64,000 nt of DNA, taken from the sequence record NC_027349.1; one strand, 5' to 3'. Origin of the DNA: Escherichia phage HY01. Shown here in pieces: positions 54,435-61,795 of the stretch (positions within the stretch are counted from its first letter, which is position 1; every line of letters starts with the position of its first letter). Both the position numbers and the translations under genes were made by a program. A model generated the notes under the pieces. That model searched no databases, had not been told where the DNA came from, and saw only the letters and a program-made list of their open reading frames with translations.

Positions 54435-54437
54435 CAA

Positions 54438-54457
54438 TGGGGACCGAAAGGTCCCCA
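54438..54457. terminator. bidirectional hairpin TGGGGACC-GAAA-GGTCCCCA between gene 54 and the convergent alt-region transcript
   Basis: perfect 8-bp stem with T-runs. Confidence 0.6.
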
Positions 54458-54462
54458 TATTT

Positions 54463-54753
54463 TTATTTACGGAATGAAATAAAAGCAGCAACTGAAGCAA
54501 CTAAACTGTCTTCAATATAAACTTCAATTTTTACCGGAGCTTCTGACTCAAATTTACCTGTTACTACACCTTGGAAAATGCTTTCAGTCTGTTCTGGCTT
54601 TGAAAAATTTTCAGAAGGAAAAATTCCGAACTTTTTATCTGTTCCAAAAATTTTGATAAATTCATCATAAACTGCTTCATTAAAAGCGTTATCAGCAGGA
54701 ATAACGCCTTCAACTACAAGTTCTTGACCTAAAAAGCGTAAAGAAGATTTCAT
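54463..54753 (-). CDS. hypothetical protein (96 aa) downstream of alt
   Basis: ORF with GAGGAA RBS and its own early-type promoter. Confidence 0.6.
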   Translation of the reverse strand: MKSSLRFLGQELVVEGVIPADNAFNEAVYDEFIKIFGTDKKFGIFPSENFSKPEQTESIFQGVVTGKFESEAPVKIEVYIEDSLVASVAAFISFRK

Positions 54754-54784: not shown

Positions 54785-54814
54785 ATTATAACACAACACG
54801 AGGGACTTGTAAAC
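54785..54814 (-). promoter_or_regulatory. early-type promoter (-35 GTTTAC overlapping the alt stop, 18-nt spacer, -10 TATAAT)
   Basis: minus strand GTTTACAAGTCCCTCGTGTTGTGTTATAAT. Confidence 0.5.
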
Positions 54815-56871
54815 TACATCTTGAACTTTTTAGACATTCCGTTGATGTTAACCAAAGAAGCCAAGATTTGAGAAACTTCGTTTTCCTCTTCTTTTGATTC
54901 TTCTACAAGGAATTGATTAAACCCAGCCATTGGACGAACTTCACCAGTTTCCATTAGATGATCGCCATCATATACCGATTCTTCTAATTGTTCAGAAGGA
55001 GGAACGATTGTGCCTTCAATTAGATACTTGTTATAAGCAGTTTCTTTCATCATGTACGTGCTTACTTTATTAATCTTCAACAAAATTCCACGCGGTAGAA
55101 TAACTTCAGCTTCTGATGGAAATCCCGATAAATGACCTGGAACGATAACTTTGATTCGCTCAGCCCCTTTAATTACCATACCTACGCTAGTTTCAGCATC
55201 TTCATTCGCATAAGCAGAATGACTGCCCATATGCATTAAATCTTCAGCATCAACAGAACCTTCTCCTTCACCAGAAAATACTGCGCCGGAATCATCTAGA
55301 GCCATATAGTTTTTACCATGCTCACCGAAGATATTTGGTTTAAGCGATGTTGATACGAAGTTCTTGAAATAGAACATTTTATTTTCAATATTATGGCGTA
55401 AAGTTTTAAAAGTAACTTCTTGTCCACGATAAAGCGTAGTTCCTGGAGGAAGAACTGAACCTTTGGCAAAGGCAGAATCCAGCGTCTCGATGTGTTTAAT
55501 AGCTCGTTCCATATATTCTTCACGGGTAGAATCTGGTTTACCCAAGAGGAACGAGTTCATTTCAACATATGAATCTGCACAATAATCTTCAATTACATCA
55601 GACTCAGCCTGAGTCAGTCCTTTTGGAGTTACTTCGGTGCTTGCGTATTCATATGCCTGAGCAGCAGATTCATTAATCAATTTATAAATGCCATTCATGA
55701 CAAATTGAATAATAGCTACCTTTTCGTCTGGCGTGGCTTTAGAACCTTTAACTAAATCATTGATAATTTTCTTAATAACATCAAAGCTATTAGAAATATT
55801 AATGTCAGCGAGATCGCTCAAAATTTTATCGGTTTTATAATCAAAGAATTCTTTATTCTTTAAATATTCTTGAGAACCTTGATGTGTTATATCGCTCTGC
55901 AGTCTGATAGACGGATCACGTAAACGTGCATGGGCCAATGCAATATGATTTCGGAAGCTTTCTAGTTCATAATCGTTAGATTTAAAACGAGAAGCACTTC
56001 TCATACCACCGATAGCTCCTTTACCGAAGTTTGAACCAATCTGAATAACGCCAGAGTTCATTGGTCCTTCTGCTTTATATACCGGAACTTTAGATTCAAA
56101 CTCTTGATATTTCTTAGCGGCAAAGCTATCACCCTGAAGCGAAGCATCGACAGTAGAATATTGAGCTTGCGCTGCTAATCGACGACTAATTTTAGTTTTC
56201 TGAATAACAGCTTGATCCGTGCGCTTATCATTTTCTAAAGCAATAGAAGCGGCAACAGCAACAGCTTTAGGAACAGCATTACCTGTTTTAACATCTACAT
56301 AAACATCACCAACCTTTGATTCAACTTTTGTGAATAACTCAGTTGAAATAGGAGGTACACCTGGAATGTCTTCTAAATTAGCATTTTTACGGTAAACCAT
56401 AATATATGCGTACTTTTTATCGTAATCCCAGATTTCCTTTAAAAGAACATATCGACCTGCTCCTTTAGTACGTACTAAACGGTCGGCAATAACTTGCATT
56501 TGACGAGCTGCACCATTTGTTTTACTCTTTAGTACGCGGAATAAGCATGCGTCAATTTTGTATTGTTTCATTGTCTGAAGAGCAGTATCAAAAACCGCAT
56601 TAATGACACCAATTGGATTTCCACCCAAGTTTTTAAGTTTAACTAATGATAGTTTCTCATTAACACCTATCATTACGATATGCATCATTTTATCGCCTGG
56701 CTTAACGTTTTTATTTGTATCACCGCCAGAGGTGTATGTACAAAATCTAAATCCAGGAAGCACGCTTTCTTCACCGGCTTGAATAGCAAAAATTTGAGGT
56801 ATTTTATGCTTAGGATTTAAGTTAACAACCGGCGCCGAAGCGCCGTCAAATAATTCTGTAATAAGTTCCAT
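54814..56871 (-). CDS. alt: Alt-like ADP-ribosyltransferase, paralog A (685 aa; N-terminus MELITELFD)
   Basis: R-S-E ART motifs (TLYRGQ, FVSTSL, SEAEVILPRG); N-terminal about 230 aa homologous to paralog B; position between 54 and 30 as T4 alt. Confidence 0.85.
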   Translation of the reverse strand: MELITELFDGASAPVVNLNPKHKIPQIFAIQAGEESVLPGFRFCTYTSGGDTNKNVKPGDKMMHIVMIGVNEKLSLVKLKNLGGNPIGVINAVFDTALQTMKQYKIDACLFRVLKSKTNGAARQMQVIADRLVRTKGAGRYVLLKEIWDYDKKYAYIMVYRKNANLEDIPGVPPISTELFTKVESKVGDVYVDVKTGNAVPKAVAVAASIALENDKRTDQAVIQKTKISRRLAAQAQYSTVDASLQGDSFAAKKYQEFESKVPVYKAEGPMNSGVIQIGSNFGKGAIGGMRSASRFKSNDYELESFRNHIALAHARLRDPSIRLQSDITHQGSQEYLKNKEFFDYKTDKILSDLADINISNSFDVIKKIINDLVKGSKATPDEKVAIIQFVMNGIYKLINESAAQAYEYASTEVTPKGLTQAESDVIEDYCADSYVEMNSFLLGKPDSTREEYMERAIKHIETLDSAFAKGSVLPPGTTLYRGQEVTFKTLRHNIENKMFYFKNFVSTSLKPNIFGEHGKNYMALDDSGAVFSGEGEGSVDAEDLMHMGSHSAYANEDAETSVGMVIKGAERIKVIVPGHLSGFPSEAEVILPRGILLKINKVSTYMMKETAYNKYLIEGTIVPPSEQLEESVYDGDHLMETGEVRPMAGFNQFLVEESKEEENEVSQILASLVNINGMSKKFKM

Positions 56872-56874
56872 GAT

Positions 56875-58968
56875 TTATCCTTGAACGAACTTGTAAGGCA
56901 TGTTTGTAATATCTATGCAAGACGCAATAATTCCGAGAGATGATTCTGCTTTCTGTTTAACATTTGATGAAACAAATGATGCAAAGTCAACTCTGTCTTC
57001 TATTTCAATATCACCTGTCATTGCAACTACTTCGCCGGTTTCCATTAAACGGTCACCGTCATAAATTACTGATTCGGTGAGTTCTTCCGTAGTCATAACT
57101 TCAGCTTGAATGAGTTTTGTATTATTAGATGTTGTTCCGTCATTATTAGAAGCATCAGTTATTTTATTAACTTTGACCATCAATCCGCGTGGTAGAATAA
57201 CTTCAGCTTCTGTTGCTATTCCGAGACTTCCTGGATATACAACATTAACTTTATGAGCTCCATCAATTGCCCATCCTATTTGAACTTTAACGTATTCAGG
57301 ATTTTCTTTATACGCTCTTATTTCGTTTGGATTAATAGTTATTCCTTCTTCATTTTTATCAACTGTCAATTCATTACGAGCTTCTGGTTCTAAAAGACCA
57401 ATACCAGCATGTGTAATTCCAAAACGTCCAAAAATGATAGGAGTTAAAGAAGTAGATACAAAATTTCTGAAATAGAATACTTTATTTTTAACTAGTGCTT
57501 CGTATATAGGAGCAGTCATACTTTGAGCACGATAAACTGTAATGCCTTCTGGTATACGGTCGCCATTTTCAAAAGCTGAATCTAAGTTATTTATAGCAGA
57601 TTCAATTTCTTTTTCACTCATTACATCATATCGTTCTGGATTGTAGCGTCCTAAAAGAAGATTATTGATGTCAGTATATCCTGAACCGCAATACTCTCTA
57701 ATGCCACGCTTTTGTGATGGAGTATATTTAGAACCATCACGGGCAATAGTAATATCAATCATTGGACCTGCACCAATTCCAGAAAAACTATAAATCATTC
57801 TTTTGAGGAATTTAGTTTTTGCTGCGTTCCAGGAATTTTTAGTTATTTCTTCCCAGACTTCATCTGGCTGTCCTTTACGGGTTTTATTATGTTTATCAAG
57901 CCAATTATCTTTATATTCTTCAAAGAGTTGATTAACAGCTGCTGCGTATTTCTCTAAACATTTTATTGAAGTAGTTGGTTCATTTTTAATCGCATTAAGA
58001 ATTACATCTTTAATTTTTTCAGAAACTTCATTAACCTCACTTTTTGAAAAGAATTTATAATCATAGTGAAGTTCATCTGCAGTTCCTTCGGCAATAATTT
58101 TTGCTGTCTTAGTTTTAGAAGCTAATGAATTAATTCCAAGTTTCATTTCTTCTGCTTCAGGAATTAAAGGAGCTGTAGCATGTTTATTAAAATTGGCTGC
58201 GGTAGATTCATACTTCTGGAATAATTCGCTTTCAAATCTAGAAGATTCTAATGACTGGCTTTGTGCAATTGCTCTACGGGAAATTTTAACTTTAACGATT
58301 ACAGCTTGGTCAGAACGTTTATCATTTTCTTGTGCAATAGATGCTGCAATTGCCTCATTTTTAGTTACTTGAGCTCCGGTATCTTTATTGATATAAACAT
58401 CACCGACCTTCGATTCAACTTTAGTAAAGAGCTCGGTACTAATTTCCGGAACTCCTGGAATGTCTTCTAGTGATACATTTTTGCGATGTATAAGAATATA
58501 TGCATACTTTTTATCATAATCCCAGAGTTCCTTAAGAAGGACGTATCTGCCACCTGAACGACTACGGATAAGTCTATCAGCAATAACTTGAATTTGTCGA
58601 GCTTGACCAGCAGTTTTAGACTTAAGAATACGAAGCATGCAGGCATCAATTTTATACTGACGCATCGTCTGCATTGCAACAGTAAAAACTGAATTGATGT
58701 AATTAATTGGACTTGGACCGAGACCTTTTAATTTAGCAATTGAACCTTTAGCAGTTAGTGTAAAAGGAACAATGTGCATCATTTTATCGCCCATCTTTAA
58801 ATCGCGATTAGTATCACCTCCAGATGTATAGGTACATAAACGAAAGCCTGGTTGTTCAATTGCGTCATCAACATGAACTGAAAAAATTTGTGGTATTTTC
58901 TTCTTTGGATTTAAGTTTGTAATCGGAAGAGTAGTATCTTCGTCAAATAATTCTGTAATAAGTTCCAT
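56875..58968 (-). CDS. alt: Alt-like ADP-ribosyltransferase, paralog B (697 aa from second ATG; N-terminus MELITELFD)
   Basis: R-S-E ART motifs (TVYRAQ, FVSTSL, TEAEVILPRG); 3-nt gap to paralog A; late promoter upstream. Confidence 0.85.
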   Translation of the reverse strand: MELITELFDEDTTLPITNLNPKKKIPQIFSVHVDDAIEQPGFRLCTYTSGGDTNRDLKMGDKMMHIVPFTLTAKGSIAKLKGLGPSPINYINSVFTVAMQTMRQYKIDACMLRILKSKTAGQARQIQVIADRLIRSRSGGRYVLLKELWDYDKKYAYILIHRKNVSLEDIPGVPEISTELFTKVESKVGDVYINKDTGAQVTKNEAIAASIAQENDKRSDQAVIVKVKISRRAIAQSQSLESSRFESELFQKYESTAANFNKHATAPLIPEAEEMKLGINSLASKTKTAKIIAEGTADELHYDYKFFSKSEVNEVSEKIKDVILNAIKNEPTTSIKCLEKYAAAVNQLFEEYKDNWLDKHNKTRKGQPDEVWEEITKNSWNAAKTKFLKRMIYSFSGIGAGPMIDITIARDGSKYTPSQKRGIREYCGSGYTDINNLLLGRYNPERYDVMSEKEIESAINNLDSAFENGDRIPEGITVYRAQSMTAPIYEALVKNKVFYFRNFVSTSLTPIIFGRFGITHAGIGLLEPEARNELTVDKNEEGITINPNEIRAYKENPEYVKVQIGWAIDGAHKVNVVYPGSLGIATEAEVILPRGLMVKVNKITDASNNDGTTSNNTKLIQAEVMTTEELTESVIYDGDRLMETGEVVAMTGDIEIEDRVDFASFVSSNVKQKAESSLGIIASCIDITNMPYKFVQG

Positions 58969-58992
58969 CATATCCTCTCTAGTGTTTATTCT

Positions 58993-59000
58993 ATTTATAA
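58993..59000 (-). promoter_or_regulatory. late promoter TATAAATA (minus strand) for the alt paralog pair
   Basis: plus TATTTATA, 25 nt upstream of the alt-B ATG. Confidence 0.55.
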
Positions 59001-59004
59001 AATT

Positions 59005-59022
59005 AAAGGCCCGAAGGCCTTT
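59005..59022 (-). terminator. hairpin AAAGGCC-CGAA-GGCCTTT
   Basis: perfect inverted repeat at the end of the 62-aa gene. Confidence 0.45.
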
Positions 59023-60666: not shown

Positions 60667-60932
60667 TGTTCATCCTTCAGAGTTTGATTTACATTTCTAT
60701 TATAAATCAATTCATCATTAAGCTCAGGCAAAGACCTGTGATATGTAGTTCTAACTTTATTTCCTTGCATCCAATGCTTGATATAAATGAAACCTTGCTC
60801 TACACATTTTTTAAAAATTCGTTCGTCTTTTTGAGCTCGGAATTCTGGATTGCATCTAAAAAATTGATTTACGTGACCGTAATCACGTGTAGTATTACCT
60901 TCATTTTCATAAATAGTGTGAACGACAAACAT
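60663..60932 (-). CDS. hypothetical protein (89 aa; 30.1 position)
   Basis: ORF, coupled overlaps. Confidence 0.6.
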   Translation of the reverse strand: MFVVHTIYENEGNTTRDYGHVNQFFRCNPEFRAQKDERIFKKCVEQGFIYIKHWMQGNKVRTTYHRSLPELNDELIYNRNVNQTLKDEQ

Positions 60933-61795
60933 TAGAATGCTCCTTGGAAAATATTATCACCACTAGTAAATCTATTAAAATACCCTGCATCACCAGGCTT
61001 AGTATAACTCCACGTATGGAATGGATTCATATGATACGGGTGTGTATAATATGGATTATATGGATGTGTATAATATGGATTATACGGATTAAATCCAGGA
61101 GTTCTCCAGGTAGTGTTCCAAGGAAAAGAATCGGTTTTAACCATCTTCTCAATTACATCTTTTATAGCTTTTTCACTATCAAAACTTTCTTTATTTTCCT
61201 TCGGTGAAAAAAGCTTATTTTCTACATCATTCCATGTATAAACTCGCTGAGCGGTTTTTGGAATATTATCACGCTCTCCTCGAGCCATCCAATAAACAGG
61301 AACATTTAATATTTCACTCGCGTGGTCGCAGTGGTGAGCGAGATCGTCAATATAACAAATTACGTTATATTTCTCTTTTGCCTTTTTGAACAACTCTTCT
61401 TTTGAAGAATCATGACCACACATCATTACTTCTGAGAAGGCACCAGGAAAAAGAGCATTCAAATTAAATTGACGATTTAATAGAGCATCAATAGAATCAC
61501 CCAATGCTGTAACAGCTACAAAATTATAATCTTCTTTTAATTTGTTAATTACACACAGGGCATCTTTATATGGAGACAAGTAACGAATAAAATCTGATCG
61601 ATTGTATTTTTCAATTAACTTGACACCAAGTTCTTCATCACAATTAAAGAGTTTACCTGGAGAAATAAATTTCTCATCTTGGATCATTTTTAAAATATGT
61701 TCTAACGGAAGATTATATTTCTGAGCAAAATAAGGAAGACCTGATTGCCAGCTTAAACATACTCCATCAATATCAGTTAAAATAGTAGGCTTCAT
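60932..61795 (-). CDS. HAD-superfamily-like hydrolase with Tyr/Pro-rich repetitive C-terminal tail (287 aa; 30.2 position)
   Basis: N-terminal DIDGV (HAD motif I DxDG) and later DD motif; C-terminus NPYNPYYTHPYNPYYTHPYHMNPFHTW. Confidence 0.6.
   Translation of the reverse strand: MKPTILTDIDGVCLSWQSGLPYFAQKYNLPLEHILKMIQDEKFISPGKLFNCDEELGVKLIEKYNRSDFIRYLSPYKDALCVINKLKEDYNFVAVTALGDSIDALLNRQFNLNALFPGAFSEVMMCGHDSSKEELFKKAKEKYNVICYIDDLAHHCDHASEILNVPVYWMARGERDNIPKTAQRVYTWNDVENKLFSPKENKESFDSEKAIKDVIEKMVKTDSFPWNTTWRTPGFNPYNPYYTHPYNPYYTHPYHMNPFHTWSYTKPGDAGYFNRFTSGDNIFQGAF
61037..61084 (-). repeat. tandem 24-bp duplication inside the HAD-like gene (plus strand GTGTGTATAATATGGATTATA x2)
   Basis: two adjacent near-identical 24-nt units encoding repeated NPYYTHPY. 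Confidence 0.8.

What the first reader, a model, noticed from the sequence alone, without database searches (positions are those of the whole stretch)
54814..58968. Two tandem Alt-type ADP-ribosyltransferase genes with conserved ends and an unrelated middle
Adjacent minus-strand genes of 685 and 697 aa, separated by 3 nt, both begin MELITELFD and are clearly homologous over roughly the first 230 residues. Both keep the R-S-E catalytic signature (LYRGQ / VYRAQ; FVSTSL in both; SEAEVILPRG / TEAEVILPRG). The central segment of about 200 residues has no evident similarity between the two. This looks like duplication with replacement of a central module, which could give two packaged, injected enzymes with different substrates. 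I cannot say from memory whether reference T4 carries both copies.
Basis: partly seen in the sequence, partly recalled or inferred. Interest (0 to 1): 0.6.

Follow-up and report, generated by a model that had tools for sequence, protein, structure and literature searches.

The report
Known tandem Alt and Alt2 genes
These are the two adjacent genes for injected ADP-ribosylating enzymes (Alt and Alt2) that most T4-like coliphages carry and databases already annotate; lab phage T4 is the exception because it deleted most of Alt2, so the pair is ordinary, although nobody knows what Alt2 modifies.

Summary
Two in-frame minus-strand ORFs (697 and 685 aa) lie 3 nt apart. Both start MELITELFD and keep the R / S-T-S / E-x-E catalytic residues. 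They are about 68% identical over residues 1-235 and unrelated in sequence over about 240-412.

The arrangement is not new. The window is 100% identical to phage PEC04. About 400 phage records carry the second gene intact, including T2 and T6. BASEL phage records call the pair "Alt" and "Alt2".

T4's small ORFs alt.-1 and alt.-2 are the wreck of Alt2: a 1-nt frameshift plus a 1,699-bp deletion. Ninety-one records share that deletion.

"Recent duplication with a swapped middle" is only partly right. Synonymous sites are saturated along the whole pair, the ART core is only about 38% identical, and Alt2 has its own ortholog in Dhakavirus, where the array has three genes. The N-terminal domain tracks the genome. 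The middle and ART parts track lineages that cross genera, and one transfer looks recent.

Both genes are under strong purifying selection and keep both gp21 protease sites.

Published transposon data for a 97.5%-identical phage show different phenotypes for the two genes.

Verdict: already known, low-to-moderate interest. Alt2's target is the open question.

The parts
58992..58999 (-). T4-type late promoter box TATAAATA, about 20 nt upstream of the Alt start. It probably drives both alt genes.
   Evidence: Exact match: 26 in the window against 9.5 expected. No such box lies directly upstream of Alt2.
59007..59020 (-). GC-rich hairpin (AGGCCTTCGGGCCT followed by a T-rich run) after alt.1. It looks like a terminator separating the gene 30/alt.1 unit from alt.
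   Evidence: Read from the sequence. It was not reported by the consensus scan.
56875..58968 (-). alt (here called A1): a 697-aa Alt ADP-ribosyltransferase and the positional ortholog of T4 alt. Coordinates include the stop codon.
   Evidence: ORF. 72% identical to T4 Alt, with residues 1-235 100% identical. PHROG 802, E 1e-271. PF03496, 129 bits.
58264..58968 (-). A1 N-terminal alpha/beta domain (codons 1-235), including the MELITE propeptide and the ITE-6 gp21 cleavage motif. Inferred to target the protein to the head core.
   Evidence: AF2 model. ITE-6 cleavage is reported for T4 Alt in PMC5694885. Trees show this domain follows the genome, not the effector lineage.
57733..58251 (-). A1 all-helical middle domain (codons 240-412), class I. 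It is homologous to the T4 Alt middle but only about 30% identical to it.
   Evidence: hhalign of the T4-type against the A1-type middle gives probability 99.4%. AF2 pLDDT is about 80-93.
57073..57732 (-). A1 ART catalytic domain (codons 413-632), with R480 (57529-57531), S-T-S 505-507 (57448-57456), E-A-E 587-589 (57202-57210) and the LTE-632 cleavage motif.
   Evidence: About 93% identical to the ART core of Dhakavirus Bp7 slot 1.
56878..57072 (-). A1 C-terminal propeptide (codons 633-697), predicted to be removed by gp21.
   Evidence: Homologous to the 63-residue propeptide removed from T4 Alt at LTE-619 (PMC5694885). The AF2 model has low confidence from residue 652 on; 633-651 is modelled with pLDDT about 70-84.
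54814..56871 (-). alt2 (here called A2): a 685-aa second Alt-family ADP-ribosyltransferase, in frame with alt and 3 nt after its stop codon. Coordinates include the stop codon.
   Evidence: ORF. PF03496, 72.7 bits. PHROG 802, E 8e-256. 99-100% identical per segment to bas37_0032, annotated 'ADP-ribosyltransferase Alt2'.
56167..56871 (-). A2 N-terminal domain (codons 1-235), with the same MELITE/ITE-6 propeptide. The first 28 nt are identical to those of alt.
   Evidence: (repeat D5).
55636..56154 (-). A2 all-helical middle domain (codons 240-412), class II. No detectable sequence relation to the A1 or T4 middle. It is homologous to the middle of the third alt gene of Dhakavirus.
   Evidence: hhalign class II against class I below 1%; against the KM16/JS10 group 97.9%. 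44-45% identical to KIT01_203. AF2 pLDDT is about 75-92.
54979..55629 (-). A2 ART catalytic domain (codons 415-631), with R482 (55426-55428), S-T-S 507-509 (55345-55353), E-A-E 587-589 (55105-55113) and the LEE-631 cleavage motif.
55162..55320 (-). Second hypervariable segment (A2 codons 518-570), an insertion between S-T-S and E-x-E. About 13% identical between the paralogs.
54817..54978 (-). A2 C-terminal propeptide (codons 632-685), predicted to be removed by gp21.
   Evidence: The L-x-E-S motif is conserved (the E is invariant in 23 sequences). AF2 pLDDT is below 50 for residues 629-685.
54834..56532 (-). The stretch of alt2 that is deleted in phage T4 (1,699 bp). T4 also has a 1-nt deletion at about 56712. 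What remains is annotated in T4 as alt.-1 and alt.-2.
   Evidence: DNA alignment. The end points share the short sequence CTAAA. PHROGs 23015 and 15247, which match exactly the alt.-1- and alt.-2-equivalent segments, score about twice as high on A2 as on A1.
54785..54813 (-). Strong sigma-70/T4-early-type promoter (TTTACA, 17 nt, TATAAT, with TG) immediately after the alt2 stop codon. It serves alt.-3 and marks the 3' limit of the alt unit.
   Evidence: 11 of 12 consensus matches. Sequence.

Best explanation
The locus is the alt-alt2 pair that is normal for Tequatrovirus. It holds two old paralogs of the T4 Alt family, arranged head to tail in one frame.

Shown:
- The late promoter box lies upstream of alt (58992-58999). 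alt2 has no late-promoter box immediately upstream, but it has its own AAGGA ribosome-binding site inside the last codons of alt.
- Each protein has four parts: (1) an N-terminal alpha/beta domain of about 235 residues starting with the MELITE propeptide; (2) an all-helical middle domain of about 175 residues; (3) a C3/VIP2-type arginine-specific ART domain (R, S-T-S, E-x-E) with a hypervariable insertion of about 55 residues; (4) a C-terminal tail of 54-65 residues that follows a conserved L-x-E motif.
- The middle and ART parts are exchanged between phages and even between genera by recombination in the conserved flanks. The N-domain stays with the genome.
- T4 lost alt2 through a frameshift and a 1.7-kb deletion.

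Inferred:
- The late promoter drives both genes as one transcript.
- Both proteins are built into the prohead core through the N-terminal part. The gp21 prohead protease trims them at I-T-E(6) and at L-x-E (about 631-632), as shown experimentally for T4 Alt. They are then injected with the DNA.
- In the cell each transfers ADP-ribose from NAD+ to arginines of a different set of host proteins. The specificity is set by the divergent middle domain and by the insertion next to the active site.
For: Identity and spread:
- The window is 100% identical to PEC04, and 339 records cover at least 80% of the locus.
- The Alt2-type middle is at least 90% identical in 400 records, including T6 and RB27. 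T2 also has it.
- BASEL phage records annotate 'Alt' and 'Alt2'.

Catalytic competence:
- PF03496 is passed by both proteins.
- R, S-T-S and E-x-E are invariant, and the E-A-E aligns with the Q-x-E of C3.

Both genes are functional:
- dN/dS is 0.02-0.04 at dS 0.1-0.2 for both genes against two BASEL phages, middle domains included.

Packaging and processing:
- The ITE-6 and L-x-E-S motifs are conserved in both proteins and in Dhakavirus homologs.
- T4 Alt is cleaved at ITE-6 and LTE-619 (PMC5694885).
- The C-tail is disordered in both AF2 models.

Old paralogy:
- pS is 0.5-0.8 along the whole A1/A2 alignment.
- The A2 middle, ART core and C-tail are 44%, 60% and 67% identical to KIT01 slot 3, against 12%, 38% and 43% to A1.
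- The array has three genes in Dhakavirus KIT01 and in PspYZU05.

Cassette exchange:
- A1 against T4 Alt: 94-98% nucleotide identity in the N-domain, 43-58% in the middle, 93% at the 3' end.
- A1 against Bp7 slot 1: codons 400-620 are 82-93% identical in nucleotides (pS 0.24-0.63; 0.24-0.35 from codon about 460), while the N-domain is 42-62% identical (pS 0.5-0.75).

Different functions:
- Bas37 HIDEN-SEQ data show different phenotypes for the two genes.
- Alt of T4 and Alt of Bas37 are not interchangeable against Mokosh type I.

T4 remnant.
Against: - No direct evidence here that Alt2 is in virions, is cleaved, or is enzymatically active. Packaging is inferred from conserved motifs and from homology of the N-domain.
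- alt2 has no late promoter of its own, so its expression rests on read-through from alt.
- I could not decide whether the two middle domains share a fold. The helix layouts look alike, but Foldseek TM-scores are uninformative. Even a 98%-identical fragment gives TM 0.34-0.49.
- The 'Intermediate' call for Alt2 in Bas37 could reflect toxic truncation products rather than loss of a useful function.
Confidence: 0.8

Rival explanations
1. One reading: a recent tandem duplication of alt within this phage lineage, after which only the central module of one copy was replaced by unrelated sequence.
For: The ends are more conserved than the middle. The first 28 nt of the two genes are identical. Segment replacement does happen at this locus.
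Against: Synonymous sites are saturated or nearly so over the whole alignment, N-domain included (pS 0.55-0.79). The ART core is only 38% identical, and there is a second unrelated segment inside it. A2's middle, ART core and C-tail group with slot 3 of Dhakavirus, not with A1. Two- and three-gene arrays occur in other genera.
Confidence: 0.07
2. The N-domains of paralogs in one genome resemble each other because gene conversion keeps homogenising them (concerted evolution), not because effector cassettes move between genomes.
For: The N-domain tree groups by genome: A1-A2 69%, the three KIT01 genes 66-87%, the three PspYZU05 genes 79-81%, against 40-46% between Tequatrovirus and the Dhakavirus or Jiangsuvirus genes. 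The 28-nt start is identical.
Against: There is no recent conversion tract between A1 and A2. N-domain pS is 0.55-0.67, as in the rest of the gene. In contrast, cassette import is seen directly: the ART region of A1 and Bp7 slot 1 has pS 0.24-0.35 next to a saturated N-domain. The two processes do not exclude each other, and older conversion cannot be ruled out.
Confidence: 0.3
3. Alt2 is a decaying or non-catalytic copy, for example a structural or decoy protein, as its loss from T4 might suggest.
For: T4 and about 90 other records have deleted it and are viable. Its Pfam score is lower than that of Alt (72.7 against 129.2 bits).
Against: All catalytic residues are intact. dN/dS is 0.02-0.03. 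The ORF is intact in about 400 records. Insertions in the Bas37 ortholog are under-represented (116 of 164 sites, mean 44.5 reads against 203.6 for Alt).
Confidence: 0.05

Closest known systems
Phage T4 Alt (gpAlt, NP_049811), the head-packaged, injected arginine mono-ADP-ribosyltransferase
   Same: The upstream gene is its positional ortholog. Both lie between alt.1/gene 30 and alt.-3/gene 54 and have a late promoter. The N-domain is 100% identical, the C-tail 92% identical, and the ITE-6 and LTE cleavage motifs are the same.
   Different: The middle domain is only about 30% identical and the ART core about 74%. This is a different allele (cassette), and the closest ART is in Dhakavirus Bp7. 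The equivalent Bas37 allele could not replace T4 Alt against Mokosh type I.
'ADP-ribosyltransferase Alt2' of BASEL phages Bas37 and Bas39 (bas37_0032, bas39_0033), also labelled alt_2, alt' or 'Alt-like (x2)' in many Tequatrovirus records
   Same: The downstream gene is this protein. It has the same length (685 aa), the same position, and 99-100% identity per segment to bas37_0032.
   Different: Nothing of substance. No paper in the searched library discusses Alt2, so its target and its presence in virions are untested.
T4 alt.-1 and alt.-2 (NP_049810, NP_049809)
   Same: They align to codons 1-117 of the downstream gene with about 95% or more nucleotide identity. Their PHROG families score about twice as high on A2 as on A1.
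   Different: In T4 they are fragments left by a 1-nt frameshift and a 1,699-bp deletion. The T4 record calls them 'a duplication of the first part of gene alt'. Comparison with intact Alt2 shows they are the remnant of a full-length paralog.
Tandem alt arrays of other Straboviridae: Dhakavirus KIT01 (3 genes), Bp7 (alt, alt'), Jiangsuvirus PspYZU05 (3 genes), 44RR ORF187c (PMC1524935)
   Same: Head-to-tail Alt paralogs sit at the same site. In Dhakavirus they also have 3-nt in-frame spacing. Slot 3 of KIT01 is the ortholog of Alt2.
   Different: Copy number and the combination of cassettes differ. In Bp7 the two cassettes that are alternative alleles of slot 1 in Tequatrovirus (A1-type and T4-type) sit side by side.
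C3-like, VIP2, iota and Vis R-S-E bacterial ADP-ribosylating toxins (Pfam PF03496)
   Same: Same catalytic fold and same motifs.
   Different: Alt proteins carry a phage-specific N-domain, a helical middle domain, an insertion of about 55 residues between S-T-S and E-x-E, and protease-removed propeptides. Delivery is by the phage head, not by secretion or a binary toxin partner.
Polymorphic effector systems with a conserved delivery part and variable cargo (T4 internal proteins with a capsid-targeting sequence, MuF-fused polyvalent proteins, Rhs/CDI toxins)
   Same: The logic is the same: a conserved targeting part fixed to the vehicle, and exchangeable effector parts recombined through conserved flanks (PMC9503650 and PMC9026906 for the concept).
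   Different: This is a resemblance in how it works, not membership. There is no sequence relation to CTS peptides, MuF or Rhs, and the Alt N-domain has no detected homolog outside Alt proteins.

Membership tests
R-S-E clade ADP-ribosyltransferases (Pfam PF03496 ADPrib_exo_Tox; C3/VIP2/Vis type) | Sequence match to the family model above the curated threshold | tested here: met
   72.7 bits (A2) and 129.2 bits (A1) against a cut-off of 23.4.
R-S-E clade ADP-ribosyltransferases (Pfam PF03496 ADPrib_exo_Tox; C3/VIP2/Vis type) | Catalytic Arg, S-T-S motif, and the E-x-E motif typical of arginine-specific enzymes | tested here: met
   A2 has R482, S507-T-S509 and E587-A-E589. A1 has R480, S505-T-S507 and E587-A-E589. 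They are invariant in 23 homologs. The E-A-E aligns to the Q-Y-E of C3.
R-S-E clade ADP-ribosyltransferases (Pfam PF03496 ADPrib_exo_Tox; C3/VIP2/Vis type) | ART fold | tested here: met
R-S-E clade ADP-ribosyltransferases (Pfam PF03496 ADPrib_exo_Tox; C3/VIP2/Vis type) | NAD+-dependent ADP-ribosylation of protein arginine | not testable with these tools
   This needs an enzyme assay.
T4 Alt family (head-packaged injected ART; PHROG 802) | Colinear full-length homology to T4 Alt, including the N-terminal domain | tested here: met
   A1 is 72% and A2 about 42% identical to T4 Alt over the full length. PHROG 802 gives E 1e-271 and 8e-256 over the whole profile.
T4 Alt family (head-packaged injected ART; PHROG 802) | Genomic position between alt.1/gene 30 and alt.-3/gene 54 | tested here: met
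   ORF order. DUF5498 (alt.-3) and Phage_blade (alt.1) flank the pair. The order matches the T4 record.
T4 Alt family (head-packaged injected ART; PHROG 802) | Late expression, needed for incorporation into proheads | tested here: inconclusive
   A TATAAATA box lies about 20 nt upstream of A1. A2 has no late-promoter box immediately upstream, so co-transcription is inferred from the 3-nt gap. No transcript data were available.
T4 Alt family (head-packaged injected ART; PHROG 802) | gp21 prohead-protease processing sites at both ends (ITE-6 and LTE-619 in T4 Alt) | tested here: met
   Both proteins have MELITE followed by L. A1 has LTE-632 followed by S, and A2 has LEE-631 followed by S. The Glu is invariant in 23 sequences. 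The reference sites come from PMC5694885. Only the motifs were tested, not cleavage.
T4 Alt family (head-packaged injected ART; PHROG 802) | Presence in the virion and injection with the DNA | not testable with these tools
   No virion proteomics for a Tequatrovirus with two alt genes was found.
T4 Alt family (head-packaged injected ART; PHROG 802) | [quoted passage not shown] | not testable with these tools
   This is known only for T4 Alt. The allele here and Alt2 have different middle and insert regions.

The most novel reading that the evidence does not exclude
The alt locus may be a polymorphic array of injected effectors. A genome-specific head-targeting N-domain would be recombined with middle/ART cassettes that circulate between T4-like genera. 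Each cassette would have its own host target or anti-defence role. Alt2 would then be a distinct effector with a fitness effect even on E. coli K-12, and classical T4 work would have missed it because T4 deleted the gene.
Probability: 0.4. Interest if true: 0.55.

Novelty: already known. Interest (0 to 1): 0.3.

Why it matters
Almost all biochemistry of injected phage ADP-ribosyltransferases comes from T4, which carries one Alt allele and only a wreck of Alt2. Most natural relatives, T2 and T6 included, inject or at least encode two such enzymes, and some encode three.

Alt alleles are now known to matter for evading bacterial defence (Mokosh type I), and they are not interchangeable. The domain map and the evidence for cassette exchange given here show which parts to swap or mutate to find what sets target choice.

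The finding itself, two adjacent Alt genes, adds nothing to what genome records already state.

Tried and rejected
1. Searching 1.84 billion representative proteins with the Alt2 middle domain gave zero hits. Even its own lineage was missing, so this says little. It is at most weak evidence that the module does not occur in other protein families.

2. The word-index homolog search with the same 179 residues returned only one fragment. That search was wasted.

3. I tried to decide from structure whether the two middles share a fold. Foldseek TM-scores against BFVD are dominated by domain orientation: A1 against a 98%-identical fragment gives TM 0.34-0.49. A2 gives TM 0.73 to SP18 Alt, while A1 gives 0.38 to the same target. 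The question stays open. Only the similar helix layout can be stated.

4. A test for recent gene conversion between the two N-domains by synonymous divergence was negative (pS 0.55-0.67).

5. Pfam scans of the isolated N and middle segments at E up to 5 gave only sub-threshold noise. NCBIfam gave nothing.

7. Literature searches for 'Alt2' found 0 papers. Searches for virion proteomics of phages with two alt genes found nothing relevant.

8. The internal TATAAATA at 57588-57595 inside alt was considered as a promoter for alt2. It lies 717 nt upstream in AT-rich coding sequence, so chance is the simpler reading.

9. Read-through of the single in-frame TAA to make an Alt-Alt2 fusion was considered. 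Nothing supports it.

Full report
**Observation**

The ORF list shows two adjacent minus-strand ORFs, 54814..56871 (685 aa) and 56875..58971 (698 aa). The second is 697 aa from the second ATG at 58968, which is the start annotated for T4 alt. The junction reads GGA TAA ATC ATG GAA, so the genes are 3 nt apart and in the same frame. Both begin MELITELFD.

Full-length BLASTP gives 41% identity, E 2e-162. Identity by segment:

| Residues | Identity between the two proteins |
|---|---|
| 1-235 | about 67-69% |
| 240-412 | 9-16% |
| 415-515 | about 40% |
| 518-570 | about 13% |
| 572 to the end | about 40-45% |

The two middle segments give no BLASTP alignment better than E = 9.8. Profile-profile comparison of their families gives probability below 1%.

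Both proteins pass Pfam PF03496. The catalytic Arg, S-T-S and E-x-E residues are present at verified coordinates and are invariant in 23 homologs. One addition: a second hypervariable stretch sits inside the catalytic domain.

**Identity of the locus**

The 4.9-kb region is 100% identical to Escherichia phage PEC04 (Tequatrovirus hy01). At least 80% of it is covered in 339 phage records, many annotated 'Alt-like RNA polymerase ADP-ribosyltransferase (x2)', 'alt_1/alt_2' or similar.

The middle domain of the downstream gene is at least 90% identical in 400 records, including T6, RB27, AR1 and phiD1. T2 also has the gene. In the BASEL phages Bas37 (KarlGJung, 97.5% identical across the locus) and Bas39, the GenBank notes read 'ADP-ribosyltransferase Alt' and 'ADP-ribosyltransferase Alt2'. 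The window proteins are 97-100% and 99-100% identical per segment to these.

A 2006 comparative paper already noted alt duplications in T4-like phages (PMC1524935).

**Phage T4**

T4 has alt (682 aa), then the small ORFs alt.-1 and alt.-2, then alt.-3. DNA alignment shows that alt.-1 and alt.-2 are colinear with the first 117 codons of the downstream window gene, at about 95% or higher nucleotide identity. Two lesions interrupt them: a 1-nt deletion in an A-run (window position about 56712) and a 1,699-bp deletion (window 54834..56532). The deletion end points share CTAAA.

The two PHROG families that match exactly the alt.-1- and alt.-2-equivalent segments score about twice as high on the downstream protein as on the upstream one. 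A query spanning the T4 deletion junction is covered in one piece in 91 records, many of them T4 itself or its laboratory derivatives.

So T4 does not carry both copies. It carries Alt plus a deletion remnant of Alt2.

**Anatomy**

AlphaFold2 models (mean pLDDT 72.5 and 75.9) give the same plan for both proteins:
- an alpha/beta N-domain (about residues 13-225);
- an all-helical middle domain with a similar number and spacing of helices;
- the ART domain;
- a low-confidence C-terminal tail.

Published mass spectrometry shows that T4 Alt is cut by the gp21 prohead protease after ITE-6 and after LTE-619, which removes 63 C-terminal residues (PMC5694885). About 40 copies are built into the prohead core (PMC9958956). 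Both window proteins keep MELITE followed by L, and an L-x-E followed by S motif (LTE-632 and LEE-631). The Glu is invariant across 23 sequences and in Dhakavirus homologs.

A late promoter box TATAAATA lies about 20 nt upstream of the first gene, just after a hairpin that ends the alt.1 unit. The second gene has no late-promoter box immediately upstream, but it has an AAGGA ribosome-binding site inside the last codons of the first. Directly after its stop codon comes a strong early-type promoter for alt.-3.

**Evolution**

The pair is not a recent duplication. Synonymous differences are saturated or nearly so along the entire A1/A2 alignment, N-domain included (pS 0.5-0.8).

Among 120 homologs there are at least eight middle types, 10-31% identical to one another, apart from one 47% pair (A2 and P0011). 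Their N-domains are 41-100% identical, mostly 60% or more. The middle types fall into superclasses:
- class I: T4-type, A1-type and P0016/18 (hhalign 99.4%);
- class II: A2, JS10 and KM16 types (97.9%);
- a third type, P0017.

Dhakavirus KIT01 has three tandem alt genes, again 3 nt apart. Bp7 has two, Jiangsuvirus PspYZU05 has three, and Mosigvirus and Karamvirus have one.

Domain-wise trees disagree with each other. The N-domain groups by genome or genus. The middle, ART core and C-tail group by lineage across genera:

| Pair | N-domain | Middle | ART core | C-tail |
|---|---|---|---|---|
| A1 - A2 | 69% | 12% | 38% | 43% |
| A2 - KIT01 slot 3 | 44% | 44% | 60% | 67% |
| A1 - Bp7 slot 1 | 46% | 65% | 93% | 51% |
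| T4 Alt - Bp7 slot 2 | 42% | 60% | 79% | 56% |

Within-genome N-domain identity is 66-87% for the three KIT01 genes and 79-81% for the three PspYZU05 genes, against 40-46% between Tequatrovirus and the Dhakavirus or Jiangsuvirus genes.

At the DNA level, A1 and Bp7 slot 1 share 82-93% identity over codons about 400-620 (pS 0.24-0.63; 0.24-0.35 from codon about 460). Their N-domains are 42-62% identical, with pS 0.5-0.75. A1 and T4 Alt are 94-98% identical in the N-domain, 43-58% in the middle and 93% at the 3' end.

These sharp transitions show that the effector part is exchanged by recombination between alleles and between genera, while the N-domain stays with the genome. Older gene conversion among N-domains may also contribute. 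No recent conversion tract is seen, apart from a striking 28-nt identical stretch at the very start of both genes.

**Function**

Within Tequatrovirus both genes are under strong purifying selection. dN/dS is 0.02-0.04 at dS 0.1-0.2, and 0.05-0.08 in the middle domains. Diversity therefore comes from exchange among old lineages, not from ongoing rapid point change.

A 2025 preprint on transposon mapping of phage genes (doi 10.1101/2025.11.20.689424) reports that T4 Alt helps evade a Mokosh type I system. It also reports that Bas37 Alt, the allele present in this window, cannot substitute for T4 Alt.

Its supplementary tables list both genes of Bas37:

| Gene | TA sites hit on K-12 | Call | Mean reads | log2FC on host CFE331 |
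|---|---|---|---|---|
| Alt2 (bas37_0032) | 116 of 164 | 'Intermediate' | 44.5 | +0.12, not significant |
| Alt (bas37_0033) | 164 of 179 | 'Non-essential' | 203.6 | -1.56, adjusted p 0 |

The two paralogs are therefore not redundant. The substrates themselves, virion presence and enzymatic activity of Alt2 remain untested. No paper in the searched library mentions Alt2.

**Verdict**

The feature is real and correctly described, but it is the ordinary, already annotated Alt/Alt2 pair of Tequatrovirus.

Both are catalytically competent Alt-type enzymes, and they probably do different things. The claim of a duplication with a replaced centre is not supported: these are old paralogs, and their whole effector portion, not just the centre, belongs to different lineages.

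This analysis adds four things beyond the annotation:
1. a demonstration that T4's alt.-1 and alt.-2 are a deletion remnant of Alt2;
2. a four-part domain map with conserved protease sites in both proteins;
3. evidence that N-domains follow the genome while effector cassettes move between genera;
4. a pointer to published data showing distinct phenotypes.

Interest is low to moderate, and novelty is 'already known'.

Noticed in passing
window 56844-56874 and 58941-58971: The first 28 nt of alt and alt2 (ATGGAACTTATTACAGAATTATTTGACG) are identical, and the 3 nt before each start are nearly so (ATG against ATC). The rest of the N-domain is only 62-71% identical in nucleotides. This suggests a constraint at the nucleotide level, such as the translation initiation region or a recombination anchor, or a very short conversion tract.
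   Followed up: partly
window 56869-56877; L005 2234-2238 and 4283-4287; L006 5997-6001: Tandem alt genes sit in one reading frame, separated by a stop codon plus exactly 3 nt. This holds in Tequatrovirus and in both Dhakavirus arrays, but not in PspYZU05, where the gaps are 61-63 nt. It is compatible with translational coupling. Nothing points to stop-codon read-through.
   Followed up: partly
window 54463-54753 (alt.-3, DUF5498) with promoter at 54785-54813: alt.-3 has a near-consensus early-type promoter (11 of 12 matches plus TG). In the HIDEN-SEQ tables its Bas37 ortholog bas37_0031 is significantly depleted on clinical strain CFT073 (log2FC -2.70, adjusted p 0.02), so this small protein of unknown function may be a host-specific or anti-defence factor.
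   Followed up: partly
window 54437-54458: A perfect 9-bp GC-rich hairpin with T-runs on both strands lies between the convergent genes 54 and alt.-3. It looks like a bidirectional terminator. T4 has the same element with a 2-nt difference.
   Followed up: no
L006 (phage Bp7) 3913-8052: In Dhakavirus Bp7 the two tandem alt genes carry the A1-type and the T4-type cassettes side by side. In Tequatrovirus these two are alternative alleles of the same slot, so cassettes move between slots as well as between genomes.
   Followed up: yes
window 60932-61795 (gene 30.2 homolog): The C-terminus contains a short tandem peptide repeat (NPYNPYYTHPYNPYYTHPY...) in a protein annotated in PEC04 as containing a haloacid dehalogenase-like hydrolase domain. 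The ORF is 287 aa, against 278 aa for T4 30.2 by the annotated coordinates.
   Followed up: no
table (precomputed Pfam column): Nearly all full-length Alt homologs carry a precomputed Pfam hit PF26846 besides PF03496. That model is not in the Pfam copy available here, so its name and extent could not be checked. It may be a curated Alt N-terminal domain.
   Followed up: no
window 57588-57595: A second TATAAATA lies on the minus strand inside alt, 717 nt upstream of alt2. It is probably chance in AT-rich coding DNA, but it could be an internal late promoter for alt2.
   Followed up: no
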